Shown here one piece after another: positions 1 through 40,859 of a stretch of DNA of 40,859 nucleotides. How positions within the stretch are numbered: the stretch's first letter is position 1; the number at the start of each line of letters is the position of its first letter. Under the pieces are notes generated by a model. That model had not been told where the DNA came from. It did no database searches and saw only the letters and a list, made by a program, of their open reading frames with translations. The translations under genes and the position numbers were made by a program. The DNA comes from a virus: IMG/VR virus record IMGVR_UViG_3300029766_000013; one strand, given 5' to 3'.

Positions 1-99
1 ATCTTAGATGGGGCAGAATTTACATATGTATGTAAAAAGAAAAAGACTGATCATTCACTGCAGATCGAACAGTTACAAAAAGAAATCAGTAAGCTCACC
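1..99. repeat. Terminal direct repeat, identical to 40761-40859 (circular-contig overlap)
   Basis: Both copies read atcttagatggggcagaatt...cagtaagctcacc base for base. The overlap lies inside one ORF and preserves its frame. Confidence 0.97.
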
Positions 100-420: not shown

Positions 421-504
421 CCCGCAAACCCGCATAAACACTAGGGTTGCGGAACTATTATAGGGTACTGCACTCCGGTGGCCCGGATAGCAATACCCTA
501 TAAT
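421..504. other. Nested inverted repeats 3' of int; candidate attP or RNA structure
   Basis: CCGCAAACCC (422-431) pairs with GGGTTGCGG (444-452). ATTATAGGGTA (457-467) pairs with TACCCTATAAT (494-504), a perfect 11-bp inverted repeat enclosing TCCGG-tggc-CCGGA. Confidence 0.3.
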
Positions 505-520
505 ATAAAAATACCGAAAA

Positions 521-535
521 ATGATACAATATCTT
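521..535 (+). promoter_or_regulatory. Third, oppositely oriented copy of the 15-mer ATGATACAATATCTT (extended -10-like TGaTACAAT)
   Basis: This is the exact reverse complement of AAGATATTGTATCAT at 38952-38966 and 39653-39667. TG at 522-523, TACAAT at 525-530. Confidence 0.35.
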
Positions 536-543
536 ATGGGTAA

Positions 544-573
544 GGGTACTCATTGTACCCATACTCTTTTTTT
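544..573 (+). terminator. Hairpin plus T-run between the convergent int and endolysin genes
   Basis: GGGTAC (544-549), loop tcatt, GTACCC (555-560), then atactc and TTTTTTT (567-573). Confidence 0.6.
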
Positions 574-586
574 ATTTATATTTACT

Positions 587-2020
587 TTAAATCGCAATTA
601 AATCTTTCCAAGTAGTAGATCCGCAAATACCATCCACTTCCAGAACTTCTTTTCTGGATTCCTGATAAGCTTTCAGAGCGTAAATCGTGTTTGCATCTGC
701 TGTCCATGTAAGTTTCAGGGCTTTGCCGTTTTTGCCTTTAAAGCCTCTGGCTCTTAATATTTCCTGTAAGAGAAGCACAGATGTATTTTTGTCTCCTGCT
801 TTTACTGTCTCTGGGTTAAACATGTAGCTGCCTCCTTCTGGGTTTGTTGTCTTGTCTGTTTCATCTTTATCTGCAGATAAAACAATTGAATAGTCCGGTG
901 TACAAAATTTTGTCCCCGGAAGATTACTGTTGTAATAGCTCTTCTGGCACACCCCGCCACCATTTGCCACGATACCGGATGCTCCGGAAGTATTTCCCTC
1001 AATCGTCCAGAACCTGTCTCCGGCTACTTTTGTTACAAAGCCGGTGTGGGTAAATGTATCGCCGTGTTTAAATATAACAATATCTCCAACTTTTGGATTG
1101 GCATTTTTTACAAATAAGACGCCTAAGGTTGGGCAGTATACATACGGCCAGTGTTTTAAGAGTTTCTTTGCATTATCCAGACCAAAAGCTTTCATGAAAC
1201 ACCAGGAGATAAACGCTGCGCACCAGGGCTGCCCCTGATAGGATGGTTTTATATCTCTCCAATATTTTGTATAGTTTGCTGATCCGGCATTTCCAGTCTT
1301 GCTGTCAAGCTTACTGTTATTTTTCTTTTCCAGGTACCCGATCTCTTCTTCTGCAATTCCCAGAACTACGTTGATAGCTTCACTCTTTGTCATGACTGTG
1401 TTTTCCTTTTTTATATCTTTTGCTTCGTTATAATCTTTGTAAAATATATTTCTATCTACAGTTCCGCTGATGCCAGGTATCTTTGCTTTACTGGAATACT
1501 GCCAGCCCACACCAAAGTCCGGCCGGAGTCGTTCCTGTAAAGTACCGTTATCTGATGCCGGATAACGTGCAATCCAGAAATCGTATTTTTTCAGATGGCT
1601 ACAAATTACATTCAGGTACCAATCCACATTGCAATAAATACCAAATTTATATCCCGCTGCCGTGATAATCTTTTCGAATGCTTCTGCCAATTTATGGATC
1701 TGTTCAGCTCCGAGGCTTCTCTGATTATTCCATTCCAGATCCAGCCAGACCGGATACTGCAGTTTTCGCCCGTTCAAAACTTTCACTACTTTTCTGGCTT
1801 CGCTCTGTATCTCCGCAACTGTCATGGCATAACTGTATTTATATGCTCCGGTTGGAATGTTATGTTTCTGACATCCGGAGTAATTTTTCTCAAAGCAGCT
1901 ATCAATCACGTTTCCGGCTTCTGTGATCCGGAGTATTGCAAAGTCCATTCCGTAGTTTGCTACGGTATCCCAGTCGATTGCTCCTTGCCATGCTGAAACA
2001 TCTATTCCTCTTATTTCCAT
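587..2020 (-). CDS. Three-domain endolysin: GH25 muramidase + CHAP amidase/peptidase + PG_binding_1-like domain
   Basis: N-terminus GIDVSAWQGAIDWDTV...DFAILRITEAG is a GH25 signature. The centre has QPWCAAFISW...THTGFV...EGNTS, the CHAP Cys/His pattern. The C-terminus LLLQEILRARGFKG...VDGICGSTTWKDL resembles a peptidoglycan-binding repeat. The gene follows the holin. Confidence 0.9.
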   Translation of the reverse strand: MEIRGIDVSAWQGAIDWDTVANYGMDFAILRITEAGNVIDSCFEKNYSGCQKHNIPTGAYKYSYAMTVAEIQSEARKVVKVLNGRKLQYPVWLDLEWNNQRSLGAEQIHKLAEAFEKIITAAGYKFGIYCNVDWYLNVICSHLKKYDFWIARYPASDNGTLQERLRPDFGVGWQYSSKAKIPGISGTVDRNIFYKDYNEAKDIKKENTVMTKSEAINVVLGIAEEEIGYLEKKNNSKLDSKTGNAGSANYTKYWRDIKPSYQGQPWCAAFISWCFMKAFGLDNAKKLLKHWPYVYCPTLGVLFVKNANPKVGDIVIFKHGDTFTHTGFVTKVAGDRFWTIEGNTSGASGIVANGGGVCQKSYYNSNLPGTKFCTPDYSIVLSADKDETDKTTNPEGGSYMFNPETVKAGDKNTSVLLLQEILRARGFKGKNGKALKLTWTADANTIYALKAYQESRKEVLEVDGICGSTTWKDLIAI

Positions 2021-2076
2021 GTCCGTCTCCTTTCACAGAGAAAATAGGGATTAGGGATGATCACTCATCCCCTGAA

Positions 2077-2376
2077 TCATTCGTCCTTATTTGTCTGTTT
2101 AATGATCTGATTTACGTATGTAGAAAGTCCCGCAATGAGAATTCCCTGCGTGATTGCTGTGAAAATCGCCATTGCAACGTCCTGGCCGGTCCCGCAAGTA
2201 CAAGTGGCAAACACATAGATTGCGCAGATTGCAATACTGATTCCGCCAAGGATGAGCGGGATGTACTTATCTTTTACTGCCTGTGCCTGTTTTAATGCCA
2301 TTCCCACGAAATACAGGGCAATTGCTACTACGATGAGTTCCGGTTTTACATAATTTGTGATCTGTTCCATAGTCAT
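2077..2376 (-). CDS. Holin (Hol44-like, about 3 TM segments)
   Basis: 99 aa with hydrophobic segments LIVVAIALYFVGMAL, IPLILGGISIAICAIYVF and AMAIFTAITQGILIAGL, and a charged C-terminus KQTNKDE. Immediately upstream of the endolysin. Confidence 0.8.
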   Translation of the reverse strand: MTMEQITNYVKPELIVVAIALYFVGMALKQAQAVKDKYIPLILGGISIAICAIYVFATCTCGTGQDVAMAIFTAITQGILIAGLSTYVNQIIKQTNKDE

Positions 2377-2624: not shown

Positions 2625-2642
2625 CTCTTTTTCCTTTCTGGC

Positions 2643-2660
2643 AATTGCGCCGGCGCAATT
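2643..2660. repeat. Perfect 18-bp palindrome AATTGCGCCGGCGCAATT (copy 1, intergenic)
   Basis: Read directly. Lies between the fibre stop (2716) and the RBS of gene 2373..2624. The core 16-mer recurs at 10171 and 27997, with degenerate copies at 19066 and 31496. Confidence 0.9.
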
Positions 2661-2715
2661 TGGGTAAAATAAAAAGAACCTTTCGGTTGTGCTCTGATCT
2701 TCTTCATGTGTTCTC

Positions 2716-5208
2716 CTATGCTGCAGTTACCTGCCAGTCAAATTCCAGATCCGGGGTTCCTGTTACAATGAAACTGTTTCTGTCTTTTTTAGATATGTAA
2801 AGATCTCCTTTTCCATATTTCGTGAGGGTTATGTAATATTGGCTTTCTATTGCATTAAGCAGGATGATGCATTTGCCATCTTCATTTAAGATTCCATGAC
2901 CATGTTCTGGATAAAGTTGCTGGATAGCCGCAACCATATATGGAATTAACATACGTTCATTCCAGTCTTCCACCTGATCATTCTGATATCGGGCAGCTGC
3001 AGGCAACAGATCATTCATATCTTCTGCATAGAAACCTGGAATTGGTTTATTGTACATCCTATCTTCTTTCGAAAGGTAGCCTTCTTTATATTCAAACCAA
3101 ACCACCGGTATCTTCCAAAACATGTCAATATCAGTTTTATCCATATATCGAACATGTTTTTTATACCTTTTCGATGAAGATGGTGCATAAGCTAAAGTTG
3201 CTCCATCAGATGCAAATACTACATGTCCACCCTGCGAGTAATGTACACAATTAAAAAGTTTTGGCGGCTCTGTAAATGATGCAATATTATTAAAGGTTGT
3301 AGTCCCATTAAATGTTGTTTGATATTTAAACGCAATCATTGAACCAAAGTATACACTCGAATTAAGATTAACATCCGCATTAAAGTCAACAGTATCTGTA
3401 AATGTAACCGGATCTATAAATTTAGCCGGATCTTCAATTTTGATTTCTTTTCCTGCCTGCAGGTGCAAATAATCCATACCTTTTAGTGAAGCATGACGTG
3501 CATTATCAGAATAATACGCCGACATATCCAAAAGTCCAGTTTGTGTATCACCCATATATCCTTTAATAACGCCTTCTTCTACTTTTGTAATCTTATAGGA
3601 ACTATACCAGGCTTGTTTTGTTTCAAAACTACCTTGTATCGCAGCTCCTGTACAGGTCAATTTTCCAGCTTCAGTCATAGAGGAATAATCACTCTGCCAC
3701 ATTATTTTCTTGGCCTGCAGGCGAATGCTGTCTGCTGATTGCTCTATCAGGGAACTTACTTCTGATTTGGTGACCGTTTCTATTCTCTGCCAGAAAGATG
3801 TATTCGTACCTACAGCAGGGCCTGTACATTTCCAGAGCTGATTGACGTTATTTCCATAATTGCCATGACTGCTCTCCGGATATGTTTCAGCGCTCAAAAT
3901 TGTTGCTGTATATCCAGGAAGTCCATCTGCTGATCCGGTCTTTGTTCCAGCTCCCTGAGTAACAGAATCAATCTTGAATCCATAGAAAGAATCCTGACTG
4001 CCATCTGTATGCCAGTATACATAGAATTCCTGAGTTGGTACATAAACAGTCGCTCCTGCAATACTGGTTCCACCCAGCTTTGCAGCACACTTCATCGTTC
4101 CATTATCATTATAAAAAATTTTCACATAGTCATAAGTTGTACTCTCTGTCCTACAATTTTCTGAAAACTTTATGATAAGGCCTGTATCACCGTAAAAATA
4201 CCTGTAGGTATTTCCTGTAGTAGTTTGGATATAGATGTCTCCATTATGCTGTTTTTTCAGGTCCTCTGTTGTCCAGGAAGATGCCGGGGCATTACTGGTT
4301 GTTGGAATATCCAGGCCATAGAAATTACCGTTTTTCTGGTCTATAGTTTCTCCTAAAGATTCCACTCGAGATGTTATTTTATTGGCAGATACCTCAATAG
4401 CAGCATTCATCGCTGCCGTGGTTGCATAGCTTTTTAATGTATCATTCTTTACATAGCTTTCAGAAACTGCCAAGGAAATGCTGTCAGCTGACTGCTTTAT
4501 TGCTGAATTCATCTCTACAGTTGTGCTGTATTTCTTTAATTTCTCATCTGTAGATTCCTGGGCAAGTTTTAAAGCTTCTTCCTGAGCTGCCTTTGCGGCA
4601 TCCTGTCCCGCTTTCGTGGCTGTGGTCTGCGCATCTGAAGCATATCCTTGTGCCTGCTGCCTTAGAGTTTCCTGCGCAACTGTCAAATTTTCAGTTGTTG
4701 CATATGTCTTTGATACTGTAGTTGATAAGCCGTCTACGCTGGCTTTTATTGCTGCATTCATCGCCTCTGTCGTACTATAATTTTCTGACAGTCTTGTATT
4801 TACTGCAGTAATGTTCGCAGATAAACCATCTACTCCTCTCTTGTATTCCGCTACTTTTGCATCAAGAGCGCTGTACTGACCAGTTACCGTATCATACTTT
4901 GTTGTCAGATCCGAGAAGCTTTCTGTCAGACCAGATACATCCATCTGAACACTTGCTAACTTGCTGTACATGGTTTCTTTACTGTTCTGTAATTCAACCA
5001 GTTCACTCTCGCTGATCAGAGCTGAAATCTTTCCCTGAGTAATAGAAATACTTGTTTCGTTTGCCTGAAAACGTTTCAGGATGGCATCCTTGGCATATAT
5101 GTTGATTTCCTTTTCAAATATCACACCGCCTTCCTCCTTTTCTGGAAAAATCCATAATAAAAGACATCCTAGATGGATGCCTTTTAGCATAGGTTTTTCT
5201 TTAATCAA
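2716..5208 (-). CDS. Tail fibre with a coiled-coil shaft and a C-terminal S74-type intramolecular chaperone domain
   Basis: Repeats of the YSTTxxMNAAIKxS type are present. The C-terminal stretch SSSKRYKKHVRYMD...PVVWFEYKEG...GFYAEDM...IPYMVAAIQQL matches the Peptidase_S74 pattern. The longest ORF begins at a TTG (5208), but GTG at 5124 preceded by AGGAGGAAGGCG is the more likely start. Confidence 0.8.
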   Translation of the reverse strand: MIKEKPMLKGIHLGCLLLWIFPEKEEGGVIFEKEINIYAKDAILKRFQANETSISITQGKISALISESELVELQNSKETMYSKLASVQMDVSGLTESFSDLTTKYDTVTGQYSALDAKVAEYKRGVDGLSANITAVNTRLSENYSTTEAMNAAIKASVDGLSTTVSKTYATTENLTVAQETLRQQAQGYASDAQTTATKAGQDAAKAAQEEALKLAQESTDEKLKKYSTTVEMNSAIKQSADSISLAVSESYVKNDTLKSYATTAAMNAAIEVSANKITSRVESLGETIDQKNGNFYGLDIPTTSNAPASSWTTEDLKKQHNGDIYIQTTTGNTYRYFYGDTGLIIKFSENCRTESTTYDYVKIFYNDNGTMKCAAKLGGTSIAGATVYVPTQEFYVYWHTDGSQDSFYGFKIDSVTQGAGTKTGSADGLPGYTATILSAETYPESSHGNYGNNVNQLWKCTGPAVGTNTSFWQRIETVTKSEVSSLIEQSADSIRLQAKKIMWQSDYSSMTEAGKLTCTGAAIQGSFETKQAWYSSYKITKVEEGVIKGYMGDTQTGLLDMSAYYSDNARHASLKGMDYLHLQAGKEIKIEDPAKFIDPVTFTDTVDFNADVNLNSSVYFGSMIAFKYQTTFNGTTTFNNIASFTEPPKLFNCVHYSQGGHVVFASDGATLAYAPSSSKRYKKHVRYMDKTDIDMFWKIPVVWFEYKEGYLSKEDRMYNKPIPGFYAEDMNDLLPAAARYQNDQVEDWNERMLIPYMVAAIQQLYPEHGHGILNEDGKCIILLNAIESQYYITLTKYGKGDLYISKKDRNSFIVTGTPDLEFDWQVTAA

Positions 5209-7304: not shown

Positions 7305-10300
7305 TTATGCATCTGTGCTGAAGCAGAGAGCTTTTCCACTCAGAGTTAGAGCTCCGATGCTTACTGTTAATAGTTGCTGTTTATAGGTTTCGAATCGTCC
7401 GACTACAACACCGCCAAATATGTAATTTTCATTATTTACGGTGATCGTATAGCCATATCCCAGGAAGGTTTCGCCGCTTTCTGTCTTTCTGGTCCAGCTA
7501 TACCAGGTGGAAGGGTATTCTTTTGTTACTTCTCTGCCGTCTTTGTATACCACTGCTGTTAATGTTGTGGTCCCATCTCCGTTATCATGGTATCTGGCAT
7601 TATAGATCAGGGAATTGTTTGTCAGGCCATGAAGGTCTGTCGTTACTTCTGACAGGTTTGCTTTGATGCCATCTATTCCTGTTTGGATATCTGCCACCTT
7701 ATTATTGGTGGTTGTTATTGCCTCTTTTGCTTCATCTGCAGTATCCTGGGCTTTTTTGATATCTTCTGCCAATCCCTCTGCATCTGCAATGATTGCTACT
7801 GTCTGGGTGTCAAGCATCTGCACTCCTGTCGTATCATAAAGAGTACAGCGAATCAGATTTACATCAGGTCCTGTCGGTGTGTATATTTTCAGTGTTTCTG
7901 TTCCAGAAGAACCATAGGTAATGTTATAGGTTTTTCCGGAATCTTTGGATTCTTCTATCTGGAAAATCCCTGCATAGCTGCTTATCAGACCATTGTCATT
8001 TTTATATGCTGAGAAAGTCACACTGGATGGCAAAAGTGTTTTTCCATCCTTTTGTTTTCTCAGAACCAATGTGCTGGTCTGAATATTATAAGAAATACCG
8101 ATCTTTCCATCTTTTGACTTGCTGATAGAAAAACGTTTTTTGATCCAGACACCATTATTTTTTATCGTCAGGATCTTTCCGCCAATCACTAATATTTCAT
8201 CACCGAGCTGCAGGGCTTTTGATTCCAGGCCGTATTGTGCTTCGATATCTACATAACCGCTGTCAGTGGTCATGTCTGTTACCTGATAGGTCCGGGTTCT
8301 GGCATTCCAGGTACCCGTGATTCCTTCTGAAACTGTTACCCTCATTGCGTCAATATGGTCTGAAACGTCTGTATCTCCCAGATATACTTTCATGGTTGTA
8401 TGGCAGGTGCTATAATCCCCGCCGGTTCCATCCGGATTCGTATGAACTACATGCGCATCATTATCAAGTAATGCTCCGATCGCATCCAGTGTACTGATCC
8501 CGGATAATGTATCCAGTGCTTTTCTGGCTGTATCTGCCGCAGCGTCTGCAGTATCGCTGGCAGCCTTTGCAGTGCCGGTGGCACTATTGGCAGTTTCCTG
8601 CACGGTAGTAATATTTTTGCTGATCTGAGAGTATGCCTGGTTCAGATTCTGTCCGGAATCATCAAACCAGATCCGGCTACTCTTGATCACCTGGGCACTG
8701 TTATTGATCTCCTTAAACAAGCTGTCAATGTCCAGCTTGGAAGCTGCGATATTCGCATTGTCTGAAACCATGCTGTCTACTACAACGCCATCTGCGATTG
8801 CGCCTTTTTGAACGCCGGCTGCATCAATCAAAATCCCTTTTCCAGTCTCATCGAACAGTGCAAAAGCAAAGTTCCCGGATGCATCTTTTCCTGCCTGCAG
8901 TCTCACCACGCCGTTGGCATCCTTCCACTGCTGGGTGGCTCCCTGTATCTGGATCCCGCCATCATCTGAGACGATCGTAAATTTATCCGTAGAAATAGTT
9001 CCCGCCAAAAGATCGGATATCGTGACCGTCTGCATTACTGCATTCCGGATCAGTGCCGAATCGATCACCGCATTCTGAGAAGTCAGGTGAATATTCTGTA
9101 GATCCCCCACTCCAGCATTTCCGGAAAGAAGTGTCTTGATATTGGCATAGTTGCCATCCAGGATATCAATCTTTGCATTGGCAGCTTTGAACTGGGTCGC
9201 GGTCAGATCCCGGAAATTTCCTACGTCTGCATTCAGCATTTCAATATTGGCATTCGTAGCATTCAGGTTTGTAATCGTCGCATAGGTGATCTTAGCCGTG
9301 TCTACATCCAGCTTGTTGATCATCGCATGATCGATCATGACCAGCTGGGCGTAATAACGATCCATTTCTTTTGTCTGGGGACCTTTATAGTCTGCATTTG
9401 TTTCTTCTTCAGACAAGCCAACCGCTTCGATCGTATGCGTCAGACCGCCGTCATACTCCCATTCCAGCTTCATAGCAGGAACCTTGTAAGAATCTCCATT
9501 CAGGTCCTCTACTGTTAAAATATCCCAGGGATCCAGGCGGGGATCTCCTAAGAGTTTCAGATTTCCAGGCATATAAGAAAACTGGCCGATTGCTGAAAGG
9601 ATATTGTTCAGCACATCTTCTGTCATAAATGGATTGGAAAAGGTAACCGCTCTTGCTCCGTTGCCTGCAGATATGGAGCTGCTGTTCCCTTCTTCATCTT
9701 TTCCTGTATAGCAGGTCAGTTTTTCTACGTTAAATGGATACTCGTTATGCTCAAAATTATCCCAGTACCGTCCGGTCCCTACCGTGTAGTCGCTGTCTGT
9801 ATATGTGTGGATCTCTATCTGCCCCTGACGATTACAGAGAGCAAATCCGCCATACATCTGAGCTACATAGGAAAGGACCTCACGACAGGAATAGCCTTTC
9901 GGGTTCGCCATTGTGATTGCATCAAGTCCTTCTGTTATCACCGGTACCCGTGTAATCTCTGCAATGCGTTTCAATATTGCAATCGTATCCGTATTATCTG
10001 GAAGGCTGGAAGAAAAAGGTGTTTCCAGGTTCATCATACGGTCATATGCCGTAAATTCTATCTGGTTCTCCGTCTTTTTGGGCTTTCCGGCTGTAAAATA
10101 TCCAATGGGAATGTATTCCGTCAGGCCATCTATGTCCATGCCGATCTGCAGTAAAAATTCATGGTTTTCAATTGCGCCGGCGCAATCCGGGATTGTTGCT
10201 TCTACATACTGGGACACCACGGAGCCCAGGGAGAAATCATCCTCTCCTTCAGATCCGCCGGTAAACTTAATGTTTTTGGCATTCGTGATGCTGGTGTCAT

Positions 10301-19049: not shown

Positions 19050-19065
19050 GTTCTCACCTCCCTCT

Positions 19066-19081
19066 GTTGTGCCGGCGCAAT
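19066..19081. repeat. Degenerate palindrome copy (GTTGTGCCGGCGCAAT, 14/16)
   Basis: Lies between the terminator at 19085-19128 and the RBS of 18873..19049, the same context as copy 1. Confidence 0.7.
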
Positions 19082-19084
19082 TTT

Positions 19085-19128
19085 AAAAAAGAGTATAAAA
19101 ATACCACCGGCCATTTCTGACTGGTGGT
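19085..19128 (-). terminator. Rho-independent terminator after the head-morphogenesis genes
   Basis: On the minus strand: ACCACCAG, a 10-nt loop, CCGGTGGT, then ATTTTTATACTCTTTTTT. Confidence 0.7.
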
Positions 19129-27793: not shown

Positions 27794-29164
27794 TTAATCT
27801 TCCCAGGGTCTTCCGTTATGATCTACTTTTCCGTTTAGCCATTCATTCCAAAAGTCCGGATCCAGAAGTGTGTTGTATGTCTTGTTTGTAAACTGTCGCA
27901 TGGCTCTCGCTATATACTCAGCTGTGCCATAAGCTGTTAACGTATCTATATACTCTTTTCTGGTCTTAGGTTCTGCTGCCGGTGGCTCTGATCCGGATTG
28001 CGCCGGCGCAATTTCCTGTTCTTTCGGTTCTACGGGTTTGGGCATATATTCCGGATGGTTTTCAATGCTGTCCTGACCTGGAATCTGTGGTTCCGACTCT
28101 GGAAGTGCTGTTTCTTGACTTTTTTCTATGTTTTCCGATTGAGATTCCGGCGTTTCAGAATAGAAATCTGCTTTAGGCTTTCCTGGTACGGAGTCCTCTT
28201 TTTCTGGAACTGCTGTTTTTTGACCTTCTGTATGGTTATCCACAGAGTTTTCCACTTTTCCAGTTGGTTTTATTTTTTCTGGCTTCTTCTTTTCCAGTTT
28301 CTTTGCCTTTTGGACTTTGGGCTGTTTCTTATCTGGTTTGATTTCCTTTGGCTCTTCTCTTGGAAATTCTTCTCCGTACTGTTCTTTCCAGGATTCCTCT
28401 GGTCCGTTTGTGAAATCCATAAGTTTTCTAAATGCCGCCTCAAGCTGCTGCCAGGTGAAATCCTCTTTTTCCTGTGAACGGACATTGATCAATCTTACCT
28501 GTTGTTCGCTTAGTTTCAGCGATAAGAGTATGCGTCCTGTTCCCGGGATACGGAGGGAATAGATTTTCTCTTCATCCGGAGCCAGGATCTCTGCTGCTGC
28601 CTGGCTTTCATTTATGTAAAGGGTTTCGAACAAGTCTATATATATCTGCGGTTGATCTTTCCCCAGCTGATATGCCGTCTGTTCCAGGATAGAAGGAAAC
28701 TCTTCCTGTGTCTGATCTGTTTCTTCCATCATCACTTCCAGATCTGTGATCTCATTTTCCTCTTTCAGTTCCGCACTTAAGGCTCTTACATCTTCTTTGG
28801 AAAAGTTCTCTGTAATCTCGTCACTTATAATGTCCGGAAGCGTCAGCATCTCCATCAGGATTGTTTTGCCTATGCCGGTATATTTTTCTTTCAGTCTTCT
28901 GGAATATCCATCCTCTGAATATTTATCATTGAGCTGTATGTATCGCGTCGTCTGATCCGGGCGGAGTCCATATTCTGCACGGGCAAATTCTCCCATTGAA
29001 CTGTAGCCGGATTCCTGAAGGACTCCTGTGTCTCTTGCGACTTTAAGCTGATATCCCAGTTCTACAGCACCCTGGGCCATGGTCATTGCCCCTGTCCTTA
29101 TCTTTTCGACTGCAAGATCTGTGTCTCTTTTAAATCCCTGATAGTCTGTTGTCATGTTTTCCAC
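27794..29164 (-). CDS. Early protein with a helical (possibly DNA-binding) N-terminus, a long K/E/P-rich disordered linker and a small C-terminal domain
   Basis: 456 aa. The N-terminus has GYSSMGEFARAEYGLRPDQTTRYIQL (HTH-like). Residues about 270-400 are low complexity. Palindrome copy 3 lies in the linker. Confidence 0.5.
   Translation of the reverse strand: MENMTTDYQGFKRDTDLAVEKIRTGAMTMAQGAVELGYQLKVARDTGVLQESGYSSMGEFARAEYGLRPDQTTRYIQLNDKYSEDGYSRRLKEKYTGIGKTILMEMLTLPDIISDEITENFSKEDVRALSAELKEENEITDLEVMMEETDQTQEEFPSILEQTAYQLGKDQPQIYIDLFETLYINESQAAAEILAPDEEKIYSLRIPGTGRILLSLKLSEQQVRLINVRSQEKEDFTWQQLEAAFRKLMDFTNGPEESWKEQYGEEFPREEPKEIKPDKKQPKVQKAKKLEKKKPEKIKPTGKVENSVDNHTEGQKTAVPEKEDSVPGKPKADFYSETPESQSENIEKSQETALPESEPQIPGQDSIENHPEYMPKPVEPKEQEIAPAQSGSEPPAAEPKTRKEYIDTLTAYGTAEYIARAMRQFTNKTYNTLLDPDFWNEWLNGKVDHNGRPWED
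27997..28012. repeat. Palindrome ATTGCGCCGGCGCAAT (copy 3, inside a coding sequence)
   Basis: Read directly. Encodes I-A-P-A-Q-S, a different frame usage from copy 2. Confidence 0.9.
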
Positions 29165-35683: not shown

Positions 35684-36253
35684 ATGACACTGGGAGATAT
35701 CATAAAAAAATATCGAAAAGAAAATAATATAAGTATGAGTGAATTTGCAAGTAACTGTTCGCTCAGCAAAGGATATATTTCAATGCTGGAAAATAATGTA
35801 AATCCCAGAAATAACAAGCCTATTTCTCCTACCCTTCCCTCAATAGCCAAGGTTGCTTCTGGAATGGGACTTGAACTAGATACTCTTTTAAAAATGATGG
35901 ATAATGAGCAAACAATAAATCTTGCTTCTGAAAATACCTCAACAAACCAGAATTCTGATTTTGTTTTTCAATTGGGGGATCCCATAGGAACCATTGAAAT
36001 GACAGTAATATCTAACAATAAGGAGCAAACAGCTAAACGTATATCACGCTATATTGATCTTTTAGTTTTATACGATCAATTATCTACATCCAATAAAAAT
36101 AAAGTTTCAACTTATTCAAAGAACCTCCTCTCCACCCAGCAGATGGAAGAAGATCTTCTTGCAGCTCATTCCAGGACGGATGTAGAACAGACTCCTGAGG
36201 GTGTTCAGCATGATCTGGATATTATGAATGATGATTCAGAATGGGAGGAATGA
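35684..36253 (+). CDS. CI/ImmR-like repressor (XRE HTH plus C-terminal domain)
   Basis: LGDIIKKYRKENNISMSEFASNCSLSKGYISMLENN is an HTH_3 motif. Divergent from cro, with RBS AAAAGGTGGTG. Confidence 0.85.
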   Translation: MTLGDIIKKYRKENNISMSEFASNCSLSKGYISMLENNVNPRNNKPISPTLPSIAKVASGMGLELDTLLKMMDNEQTINLASENTSTNQNSDFVFQLGDPIGTIEMTVISNNKEQTAKRISRYIDLLVLYDQLSTSNKNKVSTYSKNLLSTQQMEEDLLAAHSRTDVEQTPEGVQHDLDIMNDDSEWEE

Positions 36254-36254
36254 T

Positions 36255-36575
36255 ATGGCATTAGATATATTGAAATTGCGTAAACTATGTATACCCAAAA
36301 ACATTCGTATTACACTCCACGCAGCTAAAAGGCTGGAACAGCGTGGAATATTCTTAAAAGATGTAATATCCTGTATTATGAATGGAGAAATCATCGAACA
36401 ATATCCAGATGATTATCCTTACCCCAGTTGTTTAATTCTGGGGATGAGCATCGAAGATAAATATCTTCATGTAGTCATCGGAAATCACGAATCGGATTTG
36501 TTCCTTATAACAGCTTATTTCCCCAGTTTTGATAAATGGGAATCTGATTTCAAGACTAGAAAGGAGAACGCATAA
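36255..36575 (+). CDS. DUF4258-type toxin candidate
   Basis: ITLHAAKRLEQRGIFLKDVISCIMNGEIIEQYPDDYPYPSCLILG...LHVVIG fits the DUF4258 pattern. GGAGGAA precedes ATG 36255. Confidence 0.6.
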   Translation: MALDILKLRKLCIPKNIRITLHAAKRLEQRGIFLKDVISCIMNGEIIEQYPDDYPYPSCLILGMSIEDKYLHVVIGNHESDLFLITAYFPSFDKWESDFKTRKENA

Positions 36576-36802
36576 TGACTTGTTTTTACTGCAAAGGTAA
36601 TATTGAATCTTCTACAACAACTTACATGACTGATTATCAGGGATGCTATATCATTATCAAGAACGTTCCTTGTGAAAAGTGTTCTCAATGCGGGGAAGAA
36701 TACTTAAATGGTGAAACACTTGAGCGAATCGAAGAAATTATTCAAAAAGTTAAAGGTATGCTGACTGAAATTGCAGTTGTTGACTACAAGCAAACAGCTT
36801 AA
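36575..36802 (+). CDS. YgiT/MqsA-type zinc-finger antitoxin candidate
   Basis: CFYCKG...CEKCSQCGEEY forms two CxxC pairs in 75 aa. Its ATG overlaps the toxin stop (ATAATG). Confidence 0.6.
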   Translation: MTCFYCKGNIESSTTTYMTDYQGCYIIIKNVPCEKCSQCGEEYLNGETLERIEEIIQKVKGMLTEIAVVDYKQTA

Positions 36803-36843: not shown

Positions 36844-37311
36844 TTGAATTACGAACAATTACTGACTGCTGCCGATCAGGAAGGGTTACTTGTTAAAGAA
36901 CAGCCTCTTACTGAACATGATGGCCTGATCCGTGGCAGTCGCATAGCAATCCGAAAGGATATAGAAACGCAAGCCGAAAAATCTTGTGTGCTTGCCGAAG
37001 AAATCGGGCATTATCACACCAGTTCCGGAAACATTTTAGACCAGAGCAAGGCAGAAAGCCGAAAACAGGAGTATCGAGCTCGGCTTTATGGGTATAATCT
37101 AAAGATTGGACTTACCGGTCTGATCAGTGCTTATGAAGCAGGATGCAGAAATCTTTATGAGATGGCTGAATATCTGAACGCTACGGAAGAATATTTAAAA
37201 GAGGCTATACAGTGTTACCATTCTAAATACGGTGTATACGCTGCTGTCGATAATTATGTCATTTATTTCGAACCATTTGCGGTGATACATATGATTTCAT
37301 CAACAGATTAA
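36844..37311 (+). CDS. ImmA/IrrE-like domain protein with an atypical metal motif
   Basis: Starts at TTG 36844 after AGGGGTGA. Reads LAEEIGHYH where the family has HExxH, so the first His is replaced by Glu. Lies downstream of the repressor. Confidence 0.5.
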   Translation: MNYEQLLTAADQEGLLVKEQPLTEHDGLIRGSRIAIRKDIETQAEKSCVLAEEIGHYHTSSGNILDQSKAESRKQEYRARLYGYNLKIGLTGLISAYEAGCRNLYEMAEYLNATEEYLKEAIQCYHSKYGVYAAVDNYVIYFEPFAVIHMISSTD

Positions 37312-37455: not shown

Positions 37456-38871
37456 ATGAATATTGTGGGATTATTCGATATATTCAGAGTTGGCAAAATT
37501 AAGGCCGAAAATAATTCTTTAAAACAGCAGTTACAAGAATTGCATGCTGATGAATATTTTCAAGTAAAAGCTCGCTTGAATTCTATGACCCAAGAAATTG
37601 TTGATAATAATGCGCTTATATCTAAGCAGCATGAAGAACTTTCTTCCCTTACTGAACGTTCTCAAAAAGTCAGTAAGCAGCTAAATACACAGACATCTAA
37701 AATTAATCGCTACAAAGAACTGTATAAGAGTATTGAATATGTACTTGATAATTTTCTCATATCTGATATTCAGTACAGCAACTGTCGCCTAAATCCCCAT
37801 GATAAAAAGGATTTGGAAGCGCTCACTCCCTCGATATCATTATGTTTTCATTCTTTAGATGTTAAAGAGCTTCGTAAGGCATATAAAGAAAATGAGAAAC
37901 AAATAGATCAGTTGATGAATCTTTACAAGTCTCGTTATACTACTAAAGCAAATAAATCTATATATTCTCTTGTCGTTATCGCTCTTAGAGCTGAACTGCA
38001 AAATGTTTTGTATAATCTAAAATACGATAAATTAGAAAAATCTATTGAAGACATTAAAACCATCTGTGCAAAATATCTTAAGATTGCTGCAGAAGGAAAT
38101 CAGAGTATTGCCAGCACTCTCACGAAATTTATTGGTGAAATGGAATATCTTTTTATCAACGCTGTTAAAATAGAATACTCTTACTACACAAAGAAAGAAC
38201 AGGCTCGTCAAGAACAACTTGCTTTAAAAGAACAAATGAGGCAAGAAGCCGAGGAAAGAAAAGCTCTTGAAACAGAACGAAAGAAAATTGAAAAAGAAGA
38301 AACTAAATATAAAATTGAGATTGAAAAACTTCAAGGTTCTCTTAACCAAGCCTCTTCCGATACCGAAACGCAAAAATTACGCGCCCGAATTCTTGAATTA
38401 CAGCAACAACTTTCTAATGTAATTGTCAAAAAGGATGAAATTACTACTTTGCAGAACGGTAAAGCAGGAAATGTATATATAATCAGTAATTTAGGAGCTT
38501 TCGGAAAGGATGTATTCAAAATCGGAATGACTCGTCGTTTAGACCCTCAGGATCGTGTTAACGAGCTTGGCAGCGCAAGTGTTCCATTTAAATTTGATGT
38601 ACATAGTTTTATCTTTTCTCAAGATGCTGTTGGACTCGAAAAGCAACTCCATGATATTTTAAATGAGAAAAGGCTCAATAAAGTAAATCTTCGCAAAGAA
38701 TTTTTCAGAGTAGACATTTCCGAATTGGAAAGTATAGTTACTTCTATTGATCCAACTGCAGAATTTAATAAAACTATGTTTGCAGAGGAATTCCACCAAT
38801 CAGCTGAAATTGATTTGTCGCAACCATCCAATAAAACTATTTGGATAGATGAAGAAGACAATAACGAATAA
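37456..38871 (+). CDS. DUF4041-like coiled-coil protein with a C-terminal T5orf172 (GIY-YIG-related) domain
   Basis: A long coiled coil (QEQLALKEQMRQEAEERKALETERKKIEKEE) is followed by GNVYIISNLGAFGKDVFKIGMTRRLDPQDRVNELGSASVPFKFDVH...LHDILNEKRLN...EFFRV, the T5orf172/MUG113 pattern. Confidence 0.7.
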   Translation: MNIVGLFDIFRVGKIKAENNSLKQQLQELHADEYFQVKARLNSMTQEIVDNNALISKQHEELSSLTERSQKVSKQLNTQTSKINRYKELYKSIEYVLDNFLISDIQYSNCRLNPHDKKDLEALTPSISLCFHSLDVKELRKAYKENEKQIDQLMNLYKSRYTTKANKSIYSLVVIALRAELQNVLYNLKYDKLEKSIEDIKTICAKYLKIAAEGNQSIASTLTKFIGEMEYLFINAVKIEYSYYTKKEQARQEQLALKEQMRQEAEERKALETERKKIEKEETKYKIEIEKLQGSLNQASSDTETQKLRARILELQQQLSNVIVKKDEITTLQNGKAGNVYIISNLGAFGKDVFKIGMTRRLDPQDRVNELGSASVPFKFDVHSFIFSQDAVGLEKQLHDILNEKRLNKVNLRKEFFRVDISELESIVTSIDPTAEFNKTMFAEEFHQSAEIDLSQPSNKTIWIDEEDNNE

Positions 38872-38883
38872 ATTAACATTAAC

Positions 38884-38950
38884 AAAAAACCGCCCCAGTA
38901 TTGGCGTACTGAGACGGTGATCAAAATCTCCGAAGAGATGCTCGATTTGC
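38884..38950 (-). ncRNA. Predicted minus-strand sRNA, copy A (promoter at 38957-38985)
   Basis: On the minus strand: TTGTGT (38985-38980), 17-nt spacer, TGaTACAAT (-10 at 38962-38957); hairpin ATCTC-UUCG-GAGAT (38926-38939); terminator stem 38890-38896/38911-38917, which pairs with G.U only on the minus strand, then U6. Confidence 0.45.
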
Positions 38951-39042
38951 AAAGATATTGTATCATCTTCGGAACAGTTACACAAGTCGAACGTTTATGT
39001 ATATGTGATCACATCAATGGATTGAAGAAAGGAGTTTTCATT

Positions 39043-39585
39043 ATGCCATTACCCAAAGAACGGATTTATACAATAGATGACATCTACGCTCTTCCTGATG
39101 GCGAACGTGCAGAGCTGATTGATGGACAGATCTATATGATGGCACCACCTAATACCAGACATCAGGTAATCGTCGGTGAACTGTATGCTACTATCCGCAA
39201 TTACATTAAAAGTAAAAGCGGATCCTGTAAACCATATGTTTCTCCATTTGCAGTGTTCCTGAATGAAGATAACAAGAACTATGTCGAACCAGACTTAACA
39301 GTTGTCTGCTCACCGGACAAAGTAGATGAAAAAGGTTGTCATGGTGCACCTGACTGGGTAATTGAGGTTGTTTCTCCTGCTACCCAGAGTAAAGATTACG
39401 GAATAAAATTATTTAAATACCGGATGGCCGGAGTCAGAGAATATTGGATTATAAATCCCCTGAAAGGTATCGTAAATGTCTACGATTTTGAAAATGAATC
39501 GGGTACCGGATTGTATTCTTTCGACGATGAAATTCCAGTATGTATATATCCCGATTTATCAATTGTGATCTCTGAATTATTATAA
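39043..39585 (+). CDS. Uma2-family (DUF820) PD-(D/E)xK nuclease
   Basis: AELIDGQIYMMAPPNTRHQ...EPDLTVVC...APDWVIEVVSPAT...K...Y...GVREYWIINP is the Uma2 signature. AGGAG precedes ATG 39043. Confidence 0.8.
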   Translation: MPLPKERIYTIDDIYALPDGERAELIDGQIYMMAPPNTRHQVIVGELYATIRNYIKSKSGSCKPYVSPFAVFLNEDNKNYVEPDLTVVCSPDKVDEKGCHGAPDWVIEVVSPATQSKDYGIKLFKYRMAGVREYWIINPLKGIVNVYDFENESGTGLYSFDDEIPVCIYPDLSIVISELL

Positions 39586-39586
39586 T

Positions 39587-39651
39587 AAAAACCGCCCCTG
39601 TTGGTAGCAGGGACGGCTCAAGAATCTCCGAAGAGATCCCTTTCTTTTGGC
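39587..39651 (-). ncRNA. Predicted minus-strand sRNA, copy B (promoter at 39658-39686)
   Basis: Same architecture as copy A: TTGTGT (39686-39681), 17-nt spacer, TGaTACAAT (39663-39658); ATCTC-UUCG-GAGAT (39624-39637); terminator CCGTCCC/GGGGCGG (39592-39598 paired with 39610-39616) plus U5. Confidence 0.45.
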
Positions 39652-39755
39652 AAAGATATTGTATCATCTTCGGAGCAGTTACACAATCAGAACGTTTGTG
39701 TGGCTGTTATTTTTATACTCAAAATTACATATTTTATAAAACCGAGGTGATATCT

Positions 39756-40859
39756 ATGAGTAGTAAAGTAGCAGCTCTCTATATCCGTGTGTCCACAGAA
39801 GATCAAACAGAACTTTCTCCTGATGCGCAGAAACGTCTTTTGCTGGATTACGCTCAGAAGAATGACATGATTGTTTCCGGAGACTTTATCTTTACTGAGA
39901 GTGTTTCCGGCCGGCACGCACAAAAGCGCCCGGAGTTTCAGAAGATGATCGCCCTGGCGAAGCAGCCCTCTCACCCCATTGATGTGATCCTGGTATGGAA
40001 ATTCAGTCGTTTCGCCCGTAACCAGGAAGAGTCTATCGTATACAAAAGCATGCTCAAGAAGGATAATGTAGACGTGATCAGTGTATCTGAACCATTGATC
40101 GAGGGACCTTTTGGCAGCCTGATCGAGCGCATCATCGAATGGATGGATGAATACTATTCCATTCGATTGTCGGGTGAGGTCTTGCGTGGCATGAAAGAAA
40201 AAGCCCTGCAAAAAGGCTATCAGACGTCTCCCTGTCTTGGCTATACTGCAGTTGGACATGGAAAGCCTTATGTTATCAATGAGGCTGAATATGCCATTGT
40301 CTCTTATATTATGGACCTGTATGATAATCAGAACTTAGATGAGACAGCTATTGCCAGGCGTTGCAATGATCTCGGGTACCGGACAAAACGTGGAAAACTC
40401 TTCGAGCGGCGCAGCATTGACCGGATTCTTGGAAATCCCTTCTATTGCGGAACTGTTGTCTGGAACGGAGTGGAATTTGAAGGAAACCATGAGGTACGTC
40501 TTTCCAGGGAACGGTACGAAAAACGTCAGAAGCTGATCACTTCCCGGAAACGTCCGGTCAAGGCACGGAATGTCTCTGCCTGTAAGCACTGGCTATCCGG
40601 TCTTTTGAAGTGTTCTGTCTGCGGGGCCACGCTTTCTTACACCGGTAATAATAAGTGTCCTTATTTCCAGTGCTGGAAGTACGCAAAGGGATTTCATAAG
40701 ACTTCTGTTGCCTTATCGGTCAAAAAGGCTGAAGAAGCTGTGATAAGTTATTTTGATCAGATCTTAGATGGGGCAGAATTTACATATGTATGTAAAAAGA
40801 AAAAGACTGATCATTCACTGCAGATCGAACAGTTACAAAAAGAAATCAGTAAGCTCACC
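39756..40859 (+). CDS. int: Large serine recombinase (integrase), N-terminal 368 codons; continues at base 100 of the window
   Basis: Not in the ORF track because there is no stop in the window. GAGGTGA precedes ATG 39756. MSSKVAALYIRVSTEDQ carries the catalytic Ser; the resolvase domain is followed by a recombinase domain (GYRTKRGKLFERRSIDRILGNPFYCG) and a zinc ribbon (CSVCGATLSY...CPYFQC). Confidence 0.92.
   Translation, partial: MSSKVAALYIRVSTEDQTELSPDAQKRLLLDYAQKNDMIVSGDFIFTESVSGRHAQKRPEFQKMIALAKQPSHPIDVILVWKFSRFARNQEESIVYKSMLKKDNVDVISVSEPLIEGPFGSLIERIIEWMDEYYSIRLSGEVLRGMKEKALQKGYQTSPCLGYTAVGHGKPYVINEAEYAIVSYIMDLYDNQNLDETAIARRCNDLGYRTKRGKLFERRSIDRILGNPFYCGTVVWNGVEFEGNHEVRLSRERYEKRQKLITSRKRPVKARNVSACKHWLSGLLKCSVCGATLSYTGNNKCPYFQCWKYAKGFHKTSVALSVKKAEEAVISYFDQILDGAEFTYVCKKKKTDHSLQIEQLQKEISKLT
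40761..40859. repeat. Terminal direct repeat, identical to 1-99
   Basis: See feature 1..99. Confidence 0.97.

What the first reader, a model, noticed from the sequence alone, without database searches (positions are those of the whole stretch)
38884..39686. Two paralogous convergent sRNA-like modules just 3' of two nuclease-domain genes, with a third partial copy beside the integrase
Seen in the sequence:
- Regions 38884-38985 and 39587-39686 are direct repeats with long identical blocks: AAAAACCGCCCC, AATCTCCGAAGAGAT, CAAAGATATTGTATCATCTTCGGA, CAGTTACACAA and GAACGTTT.
- Read on the minus strand, each copy contains TTGTGT, a 17-nt spacer, then TGaTACAAT (an extended -10). This is followed by a 5-bp hairpin capped by UUCG and then a stem plus U-run.
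- The terminator stems differ between the copies (CCGTCTC versus CCGTCCC against GGGGCGG). Both pair through G.U only in the minus-strand sense; the plus-strand sense would give C.A mismatches. This points to a minus-strand RNA of about 65 nt.
- Each module begins within about 15 nt of the stop codon of a plus-strand gene with a nuclease-type domain: the T5orf172 protein (stop 38871) and Uma2 (stop 39585).
- The 15-mer ATGATACAATATCTT recurs at 521-535 in the opposite orientation, followed by its own hairpin and T-run, 3' of int.

Inference: these may be antisense or antitoxin-like RNAs controlling the upstream genes, as in type I toxin-antitoxin layouts where the antitoxin overlaps the toxin 3' end. 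They could instead be insulators that stop antisense read-through into the lysogeny module.
Basis: partly seen in the sequence, partly recalled or inferred. Interest (0 to 1): 0.65.

Follow-up and report, generated by a model that had tools for sequence, protein, structure and literature searches.

The report
Small antisense RNA boundary before integrase
The two repeats are copies of a widespread, unannotated small-RNA gene with its own terminator that sits just upstream of the integrase gene in temperate phages of gut Lachnospiraceae, and it looks like a two-way transcription boundary, not an antitoxin for the neighbouring nuclease genes.

Summary
Both repeats, 38884-38990 and 39587-39692, carry a minus-strand promoter (TTGTGT-17-TGATACAAT), a C(UUCG)G hairpin and a strong terminator. 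This predicts RNAs of about 65 nt.

The unit belongs to a large family: 222 modules and 162 distinct cores in more than 120 IMG/VR loci. It also occurs in Blautia, Dorea and Ruminococcus genomes and in isolated R. gnavus phages. It has no Rfam match and is not annotated.

Both hairpins covary. G.U pairs fall almost only in the minus sense (152 against 12).

The conserved partner is the divergent integrase gene: 45 serine and 45 tyrosine recombinases among 98 diverse neighbours. The convergent gene is not conserved. It falls into 51 unrelated clusters of cargo and defence genes. This argues against a cognate type I antitoxin.

I also found an opposite-sense terminator directly before int (39676-39716). 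Its hairpin overlaps the sRNA -35 box.

The "third copy" generalises to a second outward-facing promoter plus terminator across attP from int.

My best reading is a two-way transcription boundary with an embedded cis-antisense RNA that limits read-through into int. The closest precedent is a set of 81-91-nt antisense sRNAs upstream of int in S. pyogenes prophages. No function has been tested.

The parts
38884..38990 (-). Module copy 1 (Uma2-proximal). It has a -35 box TTGTGT (38985-38980), an extended -10 TGATACAAT (38965-38957) and a predicted start at G38950. The hairpin H1, ATCTC-UUCG-GAGAT, is at 38939-38926. The terminator stem-loop is at 38918-38889 and the U run at 38889-38884. The predicted RNA is about 66 nt.
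   Evidence: The covariance model R1 scores it at 102.7 bits.
39587..39692 (-). Module copy 2 (int-proximal). It has a -35 box TTGTGT (39686-39681), an extended -10 TGATACAAT (39666-39658) and a predicted start at G39651. H1 is at 39637-39624. The terminator is at 39619-39589 and the U run at 39591-39587. The predicted RNA is about 65 nt.
   Evidence: R1 scores it at 77.7 bits.
39676..39716 (+). T(+), a plus-sense intrinsic terminator immediately upstream of int. It reads CAGTTACACAA, loop TCAGAACGT, TTGTGTGGCTG, then TTATTTTTAT. Its 5' arm contains the -35 box of the minus-strand promoter.
   Evidence: 141 wobble pairs are G.U in the int sense against 30 in the opposite sense, and the int-sense fold is the more stable in 66 of 79 modules. 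Searches give covariation. Searches show only about 15-45 nt to the int start codon.
38975..39005 (+). Degenerate remnant of T(+) in copy 1. It has 2 mismatches and no T tract, so plus-strand read-through into Uma2 is not blocked.
   Evidence: The flank TGTGATCACATATAC is conserved in all Uma2-proximal copies.
514..574 (+). P3/T3, the 'third copy'. It reads CCGAAAAATGATACAATATCTT (extended -10 at 522-530), then a hairpin at 538-566 and a T run at 567-573. It abuts the stop codon of the convergent lysin gene (587).
456..505. Probable attP: inverted repeat 456-478/483-505, with the crossover within 476-488.
   Evidence: I10. In integrated relatives, homology on the int side stops at 478-488 and homology on the lysin side starts at 476.
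39756..40859 (+). Large serine integrase, 5' part. It continues at window 100-411, because 1-99 duplicates 40761-40859.
   Evidence: (Resolvase, Recombinase, Zn_ribbon_recom).
37456..38871 (+). T5orf172/MUG113-domain cargo gene, convergent with module 1.
39043..39585 (+). Uma2-family cargo gene (PADLOC candidate PDC-S03), flanked by the two module copies.

Best explanation
Shown by sequence and comparison:
- Each module is a compact minus-strand transcription unit. It has a sigma-A-type promoter with a TG-extended -10, a C(UUCG)G hairpin and an intrinsic terminator.
- The predicted RNA is about 65 nt. It runs convergent to the plus-strand lysogeny/cargo operon and is fully complementary to the untranslated stretch between the last cargo gene and int.
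- The family sits immediately upstream of the integrase gene, serine or tyrosine type, at the int-proximal edge of a variable cargo/defence slot in temperate Lachnospiraceae phages.
- The int-proximal copy carries a second terminator in the opposite sense, T(+). Its hairpin overlaps the sRNA -35 box, and it lies 15-45 nt before the int start codon.

Inferred:
- The unit is a two-way transcription boundary.
- T(+), the head-on promoter and pairing of the sRNA with read-through RNA (probable duplex cleavage) together limit how much lysogeny-operon transcription reaches int.
- T(-) ends the sRNA. It also ends any minus-sense transcription coming through int (late-operon or host read-in) before that transcription enters the cargo and immunity genes as antisense.
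- Copy 1 is a partial duplicate that arrived with the Uma2 cassette. It lacks a working T(+).
For: Family size:
- 61 loci hold the exact 25-mer, and more than 120 loci match a looser pattern.
- These give 222 modules and 162 distinct cores.
- Hosts are Blautia, Dorea and Ruminococcus. The module is also present, unannotated, in R. gnavus phages.

RNA sense:
- Terminator stems have 698 Watson-Crick pairs, 152 G.U and 12 A.C. The minus-sense fold is the more stable in 79 of 79 modules.
- H1 has 45 G.U against 4 A.C.

Covariation:
- 17 of 18 pairs show changes on both sides.
- 214 cells carry double changes, against 51 +/- 9 in shuffles (0 of 500 shuffles reach this).
- 96.5% of cells are paired, against 39-54% when the partners are slid.

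T(+):
- 141 wobble pairs are G.U in the int sense against 30 in the other sense. The int-sense fold is more stable in 66 of 79.
- 98.3% of cells are paired, with compensatory changes.

Context:
- 197 of 205 modules have a divergent ORF that starts in most cases about 70-100 nt away.
- 90 of 98 diverse ones are integrases, 45 serine and 45 tyrosine.
- 191 of 215 have a convergent ORF that ends within about 10 nt of the T run in most cases. These ORFs fall into 51 clusters of cargo and defence proteins.

Other points:
- There is no room for an int promoter after T(+).
- There is no minus-strand terminator after lysin, so T(-) of module 2 is the first strong one met by late or antisense transcription on a circular template.
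- The phage's early promoter has the same ATGATAC.AT flavour.
- Precedent: dRNA-seq detected 81-91-nt antisense sRNAs in the same position in four S. pyogenes prophages. The authors proposed that they silence int (PMC6431027).
Against: - There is no expression data for this family. The promoter, start site and RNA are predictions.
- Masking the sRNA-complementary part of the read-through RNA does not change formation of T(+) in folding. No attenuator-type switch is visible, so the sRNA's specific contribution is unclear.
- The sRNA does not cover the int ribosome-binding site.
- A similar promoter plus terminator (P3/T3) on the other side of attP would make little more than a hairpin RNA. That suggests the act of transcription or the DNA element may matter more than the RNA.
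- The module persists in L267, a relative that has lost int.
- The invariant spacer CCGAA is not explained by this model.
Confidence: 0.5

Rival explanations
1. Generic 3'-end antisense regulator of the cargo genes. The sRNA pairs with the 3' UTR of whichever gene sits in the slot. This triggers RNase III cleavage that removes the protective T(+) hairpin, which tunes or dampens expression of possibly costly defence genes. It is type I-antitoxin-like in mechanism but not gene-specific.
For: - The sRNA is fully complementary to the untranslated stretch after every cargo gene, and that transcript is predicted to end only at T(+).
- The apical terminator loop keeps TTGG or CCAA in 59 of 79 modules, in either orientation. 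That is compatible with a YUNR-type kissing loop on one of the two complementary RNAs.
- Many cargo genes are nucleases or abortive-infection-like.
Against: - Cargo also includes lipoproteins and membrane proteins that are unlikely to need damping.
- Not every cargo gene in multi-gene slots has its own module.
- The conserved linkage is to int.
Confidence: 0.15
2. The module is mainly a DNA-level boundary or recombination linker. Conserved terminators and promoter-like sequence act as the homologous flank at which int cassettes and cargo cassettes are exchanged, and the RNA has no function of its own.
For: - The same module joins serine or tyrosine integrases to 51 different cargo clusters.
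- It is duplicated around the Uma2 cassette.
- Related promoter sequences flank int-attP in inverted orientation. In some lineages they share their first transcribed bases.
- The terminator tip occurs in both orientations.
Against: - Selection is strand-specific at the RNA level. G.U falls only in the sRNA sense, and the UUCG-capped hairpin has covarying stems.
- The -35 TTG, 17-nt spacing and TG-extended -10 are conserved.
Confidence: 0.15
3. Trans-acting regulatory sRNA that targets phage or host mRNAs.
For: - It is a stand-alone promoter/terminator unit with a short unpaired 5' end.
- Some family members carry an extra hairpin.
Against: - The unpaired 5' segment is the least conserved part.
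- No pairing with any translation-start region in the window beats shuffled controls. The fraction of shuffles at least as good is 0.53 for sRNA1 and 0.67 for sRNA2.
- Host targets could not be tested.
Confidence: 0.08
4. One reading: type I toxin-antitoxin-like antitoxin RNAs specific for the T5orf172 and Uma2 genes.
For: The layout is convergent and the sRNA terminator lies 1-12 nt from the stop codons. Both neighbours have nuclease-type domains.
Against: - The neighbour is not conserved. Only a minority of modules lie next to Uma2 or T5orf172.
- The neighbours are not small toxic peptides.
- The RNA does not overlap the coding sequence.
- The sRNA sequence stays the same while the neighbour changes.
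Confidence: 0.04
5. Promoter plus immediate terminator units awaiting an antiterminator, as with lambda PR'-6S RNA-tR' and Q.
For: - Two strong promoters are each followed at once by a terminator.
- A conserved CGAA(G)A motif lies in the promoter spacer of both, which is where lambda Q binds.
Against: Downstream of both terminators lie only the antisense strands of genes: cargo/immunity in one case, lysin in the other. No Q-like gene was identified.
Confidence: 0.04

Closest known systems
Antisense sRNAs upstream of prophage integrase genes in Streptococcus pyogenes (SP119_SR034, SR071, SR086, SR106; Rosinski-Chupin et al. 2019, PMC6431027)
   Same: - They lie in the intergenic region between the last lysogeny/cargo gene and int, and are transcribed opposite to int.
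- They have their own TG-extended -10 promoter and an intrinsic terminator.
- They are short, 81-91 nt, and are annotated as antisense to the upstream gene's 3' UTR and to the int 5' UTR.
- The terminator loop also contains CGCCAA.
- They are widespread in their host clade: 192 Streptococcus phage records.
   Different: - No sequence or structure homology is detectable. Model R1 does not hit phage Javan489, even with filters off.
- In the streptococcal phages the sRNA -35 box overlaps the int start codon. There is no UUCG hairpin and no opposite-sense terminator between the sRNA promoter and int.
- Function is untested in both systems.
Type I toxin-antitoxin pairs with 3' overlap (bsrG/SR4, txpA/RatA of B. 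subtilis prophage-like elements). This comparison rests on established knowledge.
   Same: A convergent small RNA with its own promoter and terminator is complementary to the 3' end of the partner mRNA. The location is a prophage.
   Different: The partner here is not a small hydrophobic toxin and is not conserved. The RNA does not reach the coding region. The conserved linkage is to int.
Lambda OOP RNA. This comparison rests on established knowledge.
   Same: A terminated cis-antisense RNA of about 77 nt, made from a constitutive promoter, convergent with an upstream gene of a phage regulatory operon.
   Different: OOP overlaps the 3' end of the cII coding sequence and acts on cII. Here there is no coding overlap, and a second, opposed terminator is present.
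Countertranscript-driven attenuation in pT181 and pIP501 replication control. This comparison rests on established knowledge.
   Same: An antisense RNA gene sits in the leader, and an intrinsic terminator lies just upstream of the regulated gene's ribosome-binding site.
   Different: No alternative pairing that competes with the terminator was found. T(+) forms with or without the sRNA-complementary region available.
Lambda sib retroregulation of int. This comparison rests on established knowledge.
   Same: An RNA element beyond attP (P3/T3) is linked to the int transcript only in the circular form and is separated from it by integration.
   Different: There is no evidence that T3 is an RNase III site. 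P3 looks like a promoter, and it resembles the promoter upstream of int.

Membership tests
Type I toxin-antitoxin (3'-overlap class) | A small (<60 aa), usually hydrophobic toxin ORF convergent with the RNA | tested here: not met
   The neighbours are 471 aa (T5orf172) and 180 aa (Uma2). Across the family they range from 53 to 578 aa in 51 unrelated clusters.
Type I toxin-antitoxin (3'-overlap class) | Toxin and antitoxin RNA are inherited together as a cognate pair | tested here: not met
   The same sRNA core lies next to different genes. The conserved neighbour is int.
Type I toxin-antitoxin (3'-overlap class) | The antitoxin RNA overlaps the toxin mRNA | tested here: inconclusive
   The RNA ends 1-12 nt before the stop codon. 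Overlap exists only if the mRNA runs on to T(+), which is predicted but not measured.
Prophage int-upstream antisense sRNAs (S. pyogenes SR034 family) | Located in the intergenic region upstream of a prophage int gene, on the opposite strand | tested here: met
   (197 of 205 modules; 90 of 98 diverse neighbours are integrases).
Prophage int-upstream antisense sRNAs (S. pyogenes SR034 family) | Own promoter and intrinsic terminator giving a short RNA (81-91 nt) | tested here: met
   Predicted RNAs of 65-66 nt with a TG-extended -10 and a terminator. The transcript itself has not been observed.
Prophage int-upstream antisense sRNAs (S. pyogenes SR034 family) | Sequence or structure homology to the family | tested here: not met
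   Covariance model R1 gives no hit on the Javan489 sRNA. Only the CGCCAA loop motif is shared.
Prophage int-upstream antisense sRNAs (S. pyogenes SR034 family) | Detected as a primary transcript | not testable with these tools
   No transcriptome data are available here.
Intrinsic (Rho-independent) terminator | G+C-rich hairpin directly followed by a U tract, in the sense of transcription | tested here: met
   - T(-).
- T(+).
- T3.
Antisense-RNA-mediated transcription attenuation (pT181/pIP501 type) | Alternative pairing that pre-empts the terminator and is removed when the antisense RNA binds | tested here: not met
   T(+) is in the minimum-energy fold both with and without the sRNA-complementary segment available, in 8 diverse members.
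Lambda PR'-6S RNA-type antitermination unit | Same-sense genes downstream of the terminator that need read-through | tested here: not met
   Only antisense strands of genes follow T(-) and T3.
Any Rfam 15 family | Score at or above the family's gathering threshold | tested here: not met
   There are no matches at the gathering threshold in the whole window. Only chance-level matches, 19 bits or less, appear at E <= 10.

The most novel reading that the evidence does not exclude
In gut Lachnospiraceae phages, int-attP is bracketed by a matched pair of outward-firing promoter-terminator units. One is the module and the other is P3/T3 across attP. Together they would act as a dedicated insulator of the recombination module. 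The upstream unit encodes a structured cis-antisense RNA that sets integrase levels. It would also serve as the portable, conserved edge of a defence-gene hotspot, so that newly captured cargo and swapped integrases are plugged into ready-made transcriptional control.
Probability: 0.2. Interest if true: 0.7.

Novelty: new variant of a known kind. Interest (0 to 1): 0.5.

Why it matters
- If the RNA is made, this is one of the most widespread non-coding elements of temperate phages of abundant human-gut Firmicutes, and it is missing from Rfam and from all annotations.
- It marks precisely the int-proximal edge of a slot that collects defence and superinfection-exclusion genes, so it is useful for finding such genes.
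- It offers a testable handle on how integrase expression is kept separate from constitutive lysogenic transcription. That question has been answered mostly for lambda.
- The element also occurs in cultivable R. gnavus phages whose attP has been mapped, so direct experiments are possible.

Tried and rejected
- **Rfam.** The whole window at gathering thresholds and the region at E <= 10 gave nothing meaningful.
- **Attenuator switch.** Folding the int-sense leader with and without the sRNA-complementary part left T(+) unchanged.
- **Mirror-image int promoter.** TTGTAT-17-CACAAT, overlapping the sRNA promoter, exists in window copy 2. Its -10 T is not conserved across the family (reading), so I rejected it as a general feature.
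- **Promoter between T(+) and int.** Only 15-45 nt are available and no conserved hexamers appear.
- **CI operator in the module.** The repeated TGTTGAAC(T/A)ATT motif of the cro/cI region is not present in the module.
- **Coding potential.** The ATG inside the -10 opens antisense ORFs. Family members differ by indels that are not multiples of three.
- **Trans targets in the phage.** None is better than shuffled controls.
- **Homology to the S. pyogenes sRNAs.** Not detectable.
- **Leader-based collection scan.** AAAATAACAGCCANNNCA was too unspecific and mostly returned unrelated contigs.
- **Pairing of the T3 loop GGGUAC with GUACCC after T(+).** Seen in a few lineages only and partly palindromic. 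Not pursued.
- **Strand asymmetry of T3.** None, because the stems are nearly perfect.
Full report
**1. The observation**

The window is a circularly permuted temperate-phage genome: bases 1-99 repeat 40761-40859. Its plus-strand lysogeny block reads as follows:
- an HTH repressor-like gene (35684-36253)
- DUF4258
- a weak MqsA-like gene
- an M78/ImmA-like peptidase
- a T5orf172/MUG113 protein (37456-38871)
- a Uma2 protein (39043-39585)
- a large serine integrase that starts at 39756 and ends at 411 across the window junction

Everything from 587 to 35564 is on the minus strand.

A 19-mer from them occurs exactly twice, against 0.01 expected. On the minus strand each copy has:
- TTGTGT, 17 nt, then TGATACAAT
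- a C(UUCG)G hairpin
- a 12-pair terminator with a U run

The predicted RNAs fold far better than shuffles (z = -4.7 and -5.3). The third copy at 521-535 is real and extends to about 22 nt of homology.

**2. A large family**

The 25-mer TCCGAAGATGATACAATATCTTTGC is found exactly in 61 IMG/VR loci. Together these give 222 modules with 162 distinct cores.

Species-representative genomes with the exact 25-mer are Blautia, Dorea, Ruminococcus and other Lachnospiraceae. The module is present but unannotated in the isolated R. gnavus phages phiRgPS_6, phiRg519T2 and RG-TP1. Rfam 15 has nothing like it.

**3. It is an RNA element in the minus (sRNA) sense**

In 79 non-redundant modules I located each hairpin with a scoring scheme that treats G.T and A.C alike. 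I then counted which wobble type occurs.

| Hairpin | Watson-Crick | G.U in sRNA sense | A.C in sRNA sense | More stable fold |
|---|---|---|---|---|
| Terminator T(-) | 698 | 152 | 12 | sRNA sense in 79 of 79 |
| H1 (UUCG) | 484 | 45 | 4 | sRNA sense in 78 of 79 |

A covariance model built from 16 members re-aligned 94 matches, 85 of them distinct. On that alignment:
- 96.5% of cells form standard pairs
- 17 of 18 pairs show changes on both sides
- 214 cells carry double changes, against 51 +/- 9 in shuffles (0 of 500 shuffles reach this)
- slid registers give only 39-54% pairing

This alignment is fitted to the model and therefore leans toward the structure. An independent count on the nine basal terminator pairs gives the same picture. 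Those stems were themselves chosen as the best inverted repeat, so only their wobble type and covariation are informative.

The -35 TTG, the 17-nt spacing and the TG-extended -10 are kept throughout. The phage's own early promoter has the same ATGATAC.AT form. A G seven bases after the -10 is the likely start site, which gives RNAs of 65-66 nt.

**4. A second terminator in the opposite sense**

Upstream of the sRNA promoter lies an inverted repeat whose 3' arm carries the -35 box. Its wobble positions are A.C in the sRNA sense (141) far more often than G.U (30). They are therefore G.U in the int sense, and the int-sense fold is the more stable in 66 of 79 modules.

In the int sense the hairpin is followed by TTATTTTT. 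In the window this is CAGTTACACAA/TTGTGTGGCTG at 39676-39706, with the T tract at 39707-39716. In the simple-hairpin subclass 98.3% of cells pair, with compensatory changes.

Only 15-45 nt separate this T tract from the int start codon, and the ribosome-binding site takes up part of that. I found no int promoter there, so int appears to depend on transcription that reads through T(+).

Copy 1, upstream of Uma2, has a degenerate version of this hairpin and no T tract. Read-through from T5orf172 into Uma2 is therefore not blocked.

**5. What the module is linked to**

With modules oriented in the sRNA sense:
- 197 of 205 modules with enough flanking DNA have a divergent ORF of at least 100 aa, starting about 70-100 nt away in most cases.
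- Among 98 diverse ones, 45 are serine recombinases and 45 are tyrosine integrases.
- Exceptions are Uma2 (the duplicated copy), an HNH gene, and insertions of an IS605-type TnpB.

On the other side:
- 191 of 215 modules have a convergent ORF, which ends within about 10 nt of the T run in most cases.
- These proteins fall into 51 unrelated clusters.
- The clusters include Mrr-type nucleases, Abi_2/AbiD, ThsB-like TIR, PD-Lambda-1, several PADLOC candidate systems (Uma2 = PDC-S03), Ltp lipoprotein, PIN, NYN, HicB and T5orf172.

The constant partner is int. The variable partner is whatever occupies the cargo/defence slot. This is the main argument against a cognate antitoxin.

**6. The third copy generalises**

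Comparison with integrated relatives places the crossover at 476-488. This is the centre of the inverted repeat 456-478/483-505, so that repeat is attP. The third copy, P3, therefore lies across attP from int.

About 35 loci (25 distinct sequences) have an equivalent (A)AGATGATACAATAT, usually with a hairpin and T run. It is in the int sense, 1.1-2.3 kb from the module, between attP and the stop of the convergent lysin gene.

In phiRgPS_6 the attP mapped experimentally by Buttimer et al. (PMC10072058) lies at locus positions 4450-4470. P3 is at about 4547-4562, T3 at 4565-4598, and the endolysin stop at 4598.

So int-attP is bracketed by two outward-firing promoters, each followed by a terminator that abuts a convergent operon. 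In some lineages the first transcribed bases of the two promoters match within a genome: ATCTT here, ATTC in the gnavus phages, ATGTT and ATAGTT in others.

No minus-strand terminator follows lysin. On a circular template, late transcription would therefore run antisense through int until it meets T(-) of module 2.

**7. Mechanism**

Shown:
- the anatomy of the module
- the strand of each structure
- the linkage to int
- the variability of the cargo

Inferred: the module is a two-way boundary.
- T(+), and possibly head-on firing from the sRNA promoter, restrict lysogeny-operon transcription from entering int.
- T(-) protects the cargo and immunity genes from antisense transcription.
- The sRNA is fully complementary to the read-through RNA and could direct its cleavage.

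I tested a pT181-type attenuator and did not find one. T(+) forms whether or not the sRNA-complementary segment is available. No trans target in the phage stands out.

Several points remain unexplained:
- The invariant CCGAA lies in the promoter spacer. It is the reverse complement of the H1 loop region, so any long transcript spanning both could form a 7-9-bp helix.
- The purpose of P3 is unclear, because its RNA is little more than a terminator hairpin.
- Both elements persist in a relative that has lost int.

**8. Comparison with what is known**

[quoted passage not shown] The authors suggested that these silence int in lysogens (PMC6431027). That family occurs in 192 Streptococcus phage records.

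In phage Javan489 the layout is repressor, cargo, sRNA (opposite strand), int. The sRNA -35 box overlaps the int start codon.

My covariance model does not detect these RNAs. They lack the UUCG hairpin and the opposed terminator. They do share a CGCCAA terminator loop. In the present family 59 of 79 apical loops contain TTGG or its complement CCAA.

I therefore treat the window's modules as a positional and architectural analogue, not a demonstrable homologue. Resemblances to type I antitoxins with 3' overlap, lambda OOP, lambda sib and PR'-6S RNA are partial, and at least one defining feature fails in each membership test I ran on them.

**9. Verdict**

- The antitoxin interpretation is not supported.
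- The insulator idea is closer, and I extend it to an int-linked, two-terminator boundary with an embedded cis-antisense RNA.
- I rate it a new variant of a known but barely described kind. Interest is moderate, because the family is large, structured, unannotated and experimentally accessible, but its function is untested.

Noticed in passing
window 1-99 and 40761-40859: The two ends of the window share an identical 99-nt sequence, so the window is a circularly permuted complete phage genome. The serine integrase gene runs across the junction.
   Followed up: yes
window 456-505: Probable attP: an inverted repeat at 456-478/483-505. Homology with integrated relatives breaks at 476-488.
   Followed up: yes
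window 2642-2664, 10169-10191, 19064-19086, 27995-28017: There are four copies of a palindrome built on TTGCGCCGGCGCAA (CAATTGCGCCGGCGCAATT). Two of them are intergenic within the minus-strand structural/late genes. It could be a regulator site or hairpin signal.
   Followed up: no
window 36228-36802: A DUF4258 gene is followed by a small gene with weak MqsA/YokU-type antitoxin similarity, below Pfam's cut-off. This is a candidate protein toxin-antitoxin pair inside the lysogeny operon. An M78/ImmA-like peptidase follows at 36844-37311.
   Followed up: partly
L002, L004, L014, L022, L026, L036, L044, L058, L060: Many metagenomic contigs join the lysin gene (window 587-2100) to the repressor-to-int block with only about 1.4 kb between them. 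They appear to be a common deletion derivative that lacks the structural and replication genes.
   Followed up: partly
L002, L008, L014, L015, L026, L036 (about 200 nt from the module): An IS605-type TnpB gene (367-402 aa) is inserted between int and the module.
   Followed up: partly
L267 about 1310-1700 (sRNA-sense orientation): This is a relative of the R. gnavus phages in which int and the left half of attP are missing. P3/T3 and the module are only about 150 nt apart and both are intact.
   Followed up: partly
window 39004-39013: A perfect palindrome, TGTGATCACA, lies between module 1 and the Uma2 start. It is conserved in all Uma2-proximal copies and could be an operator.
   Followed up: no
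terminator tips, e.g. window 38898-38909; L124: The tip of the sRNA terminator occurs in both orientations across the family (GTA-CGCCAA-TAC against GTA-TTGGCG-TAC; TTGGTAGC against GCTACCAA). TTGG occurs in 38 and CCAA in 21 of 79 modules. The S. pyogenes int-upstream sRNAs also have CGCCAA in their terminator loop.
   Followed up: partly
L074, L223, L270, L288 (downstream of int): In RG-TP1-type phages the P3 promoter is followed by a longer stretch with two hairpins, not by an immediate terminator. This could be a longer RNA.
   Followed up: no
window 39670-39674 and 38969-38973 (minus-strand CCGAA); 514-518: The promoter spacer CCGAA is invariant or nearly so in 76 diverse modules, although it lay outside the search pattern. 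It is partly kept in P3 copies. It is the reverse complement of the H1 loop region CUUCGG.
   Followed up: partly
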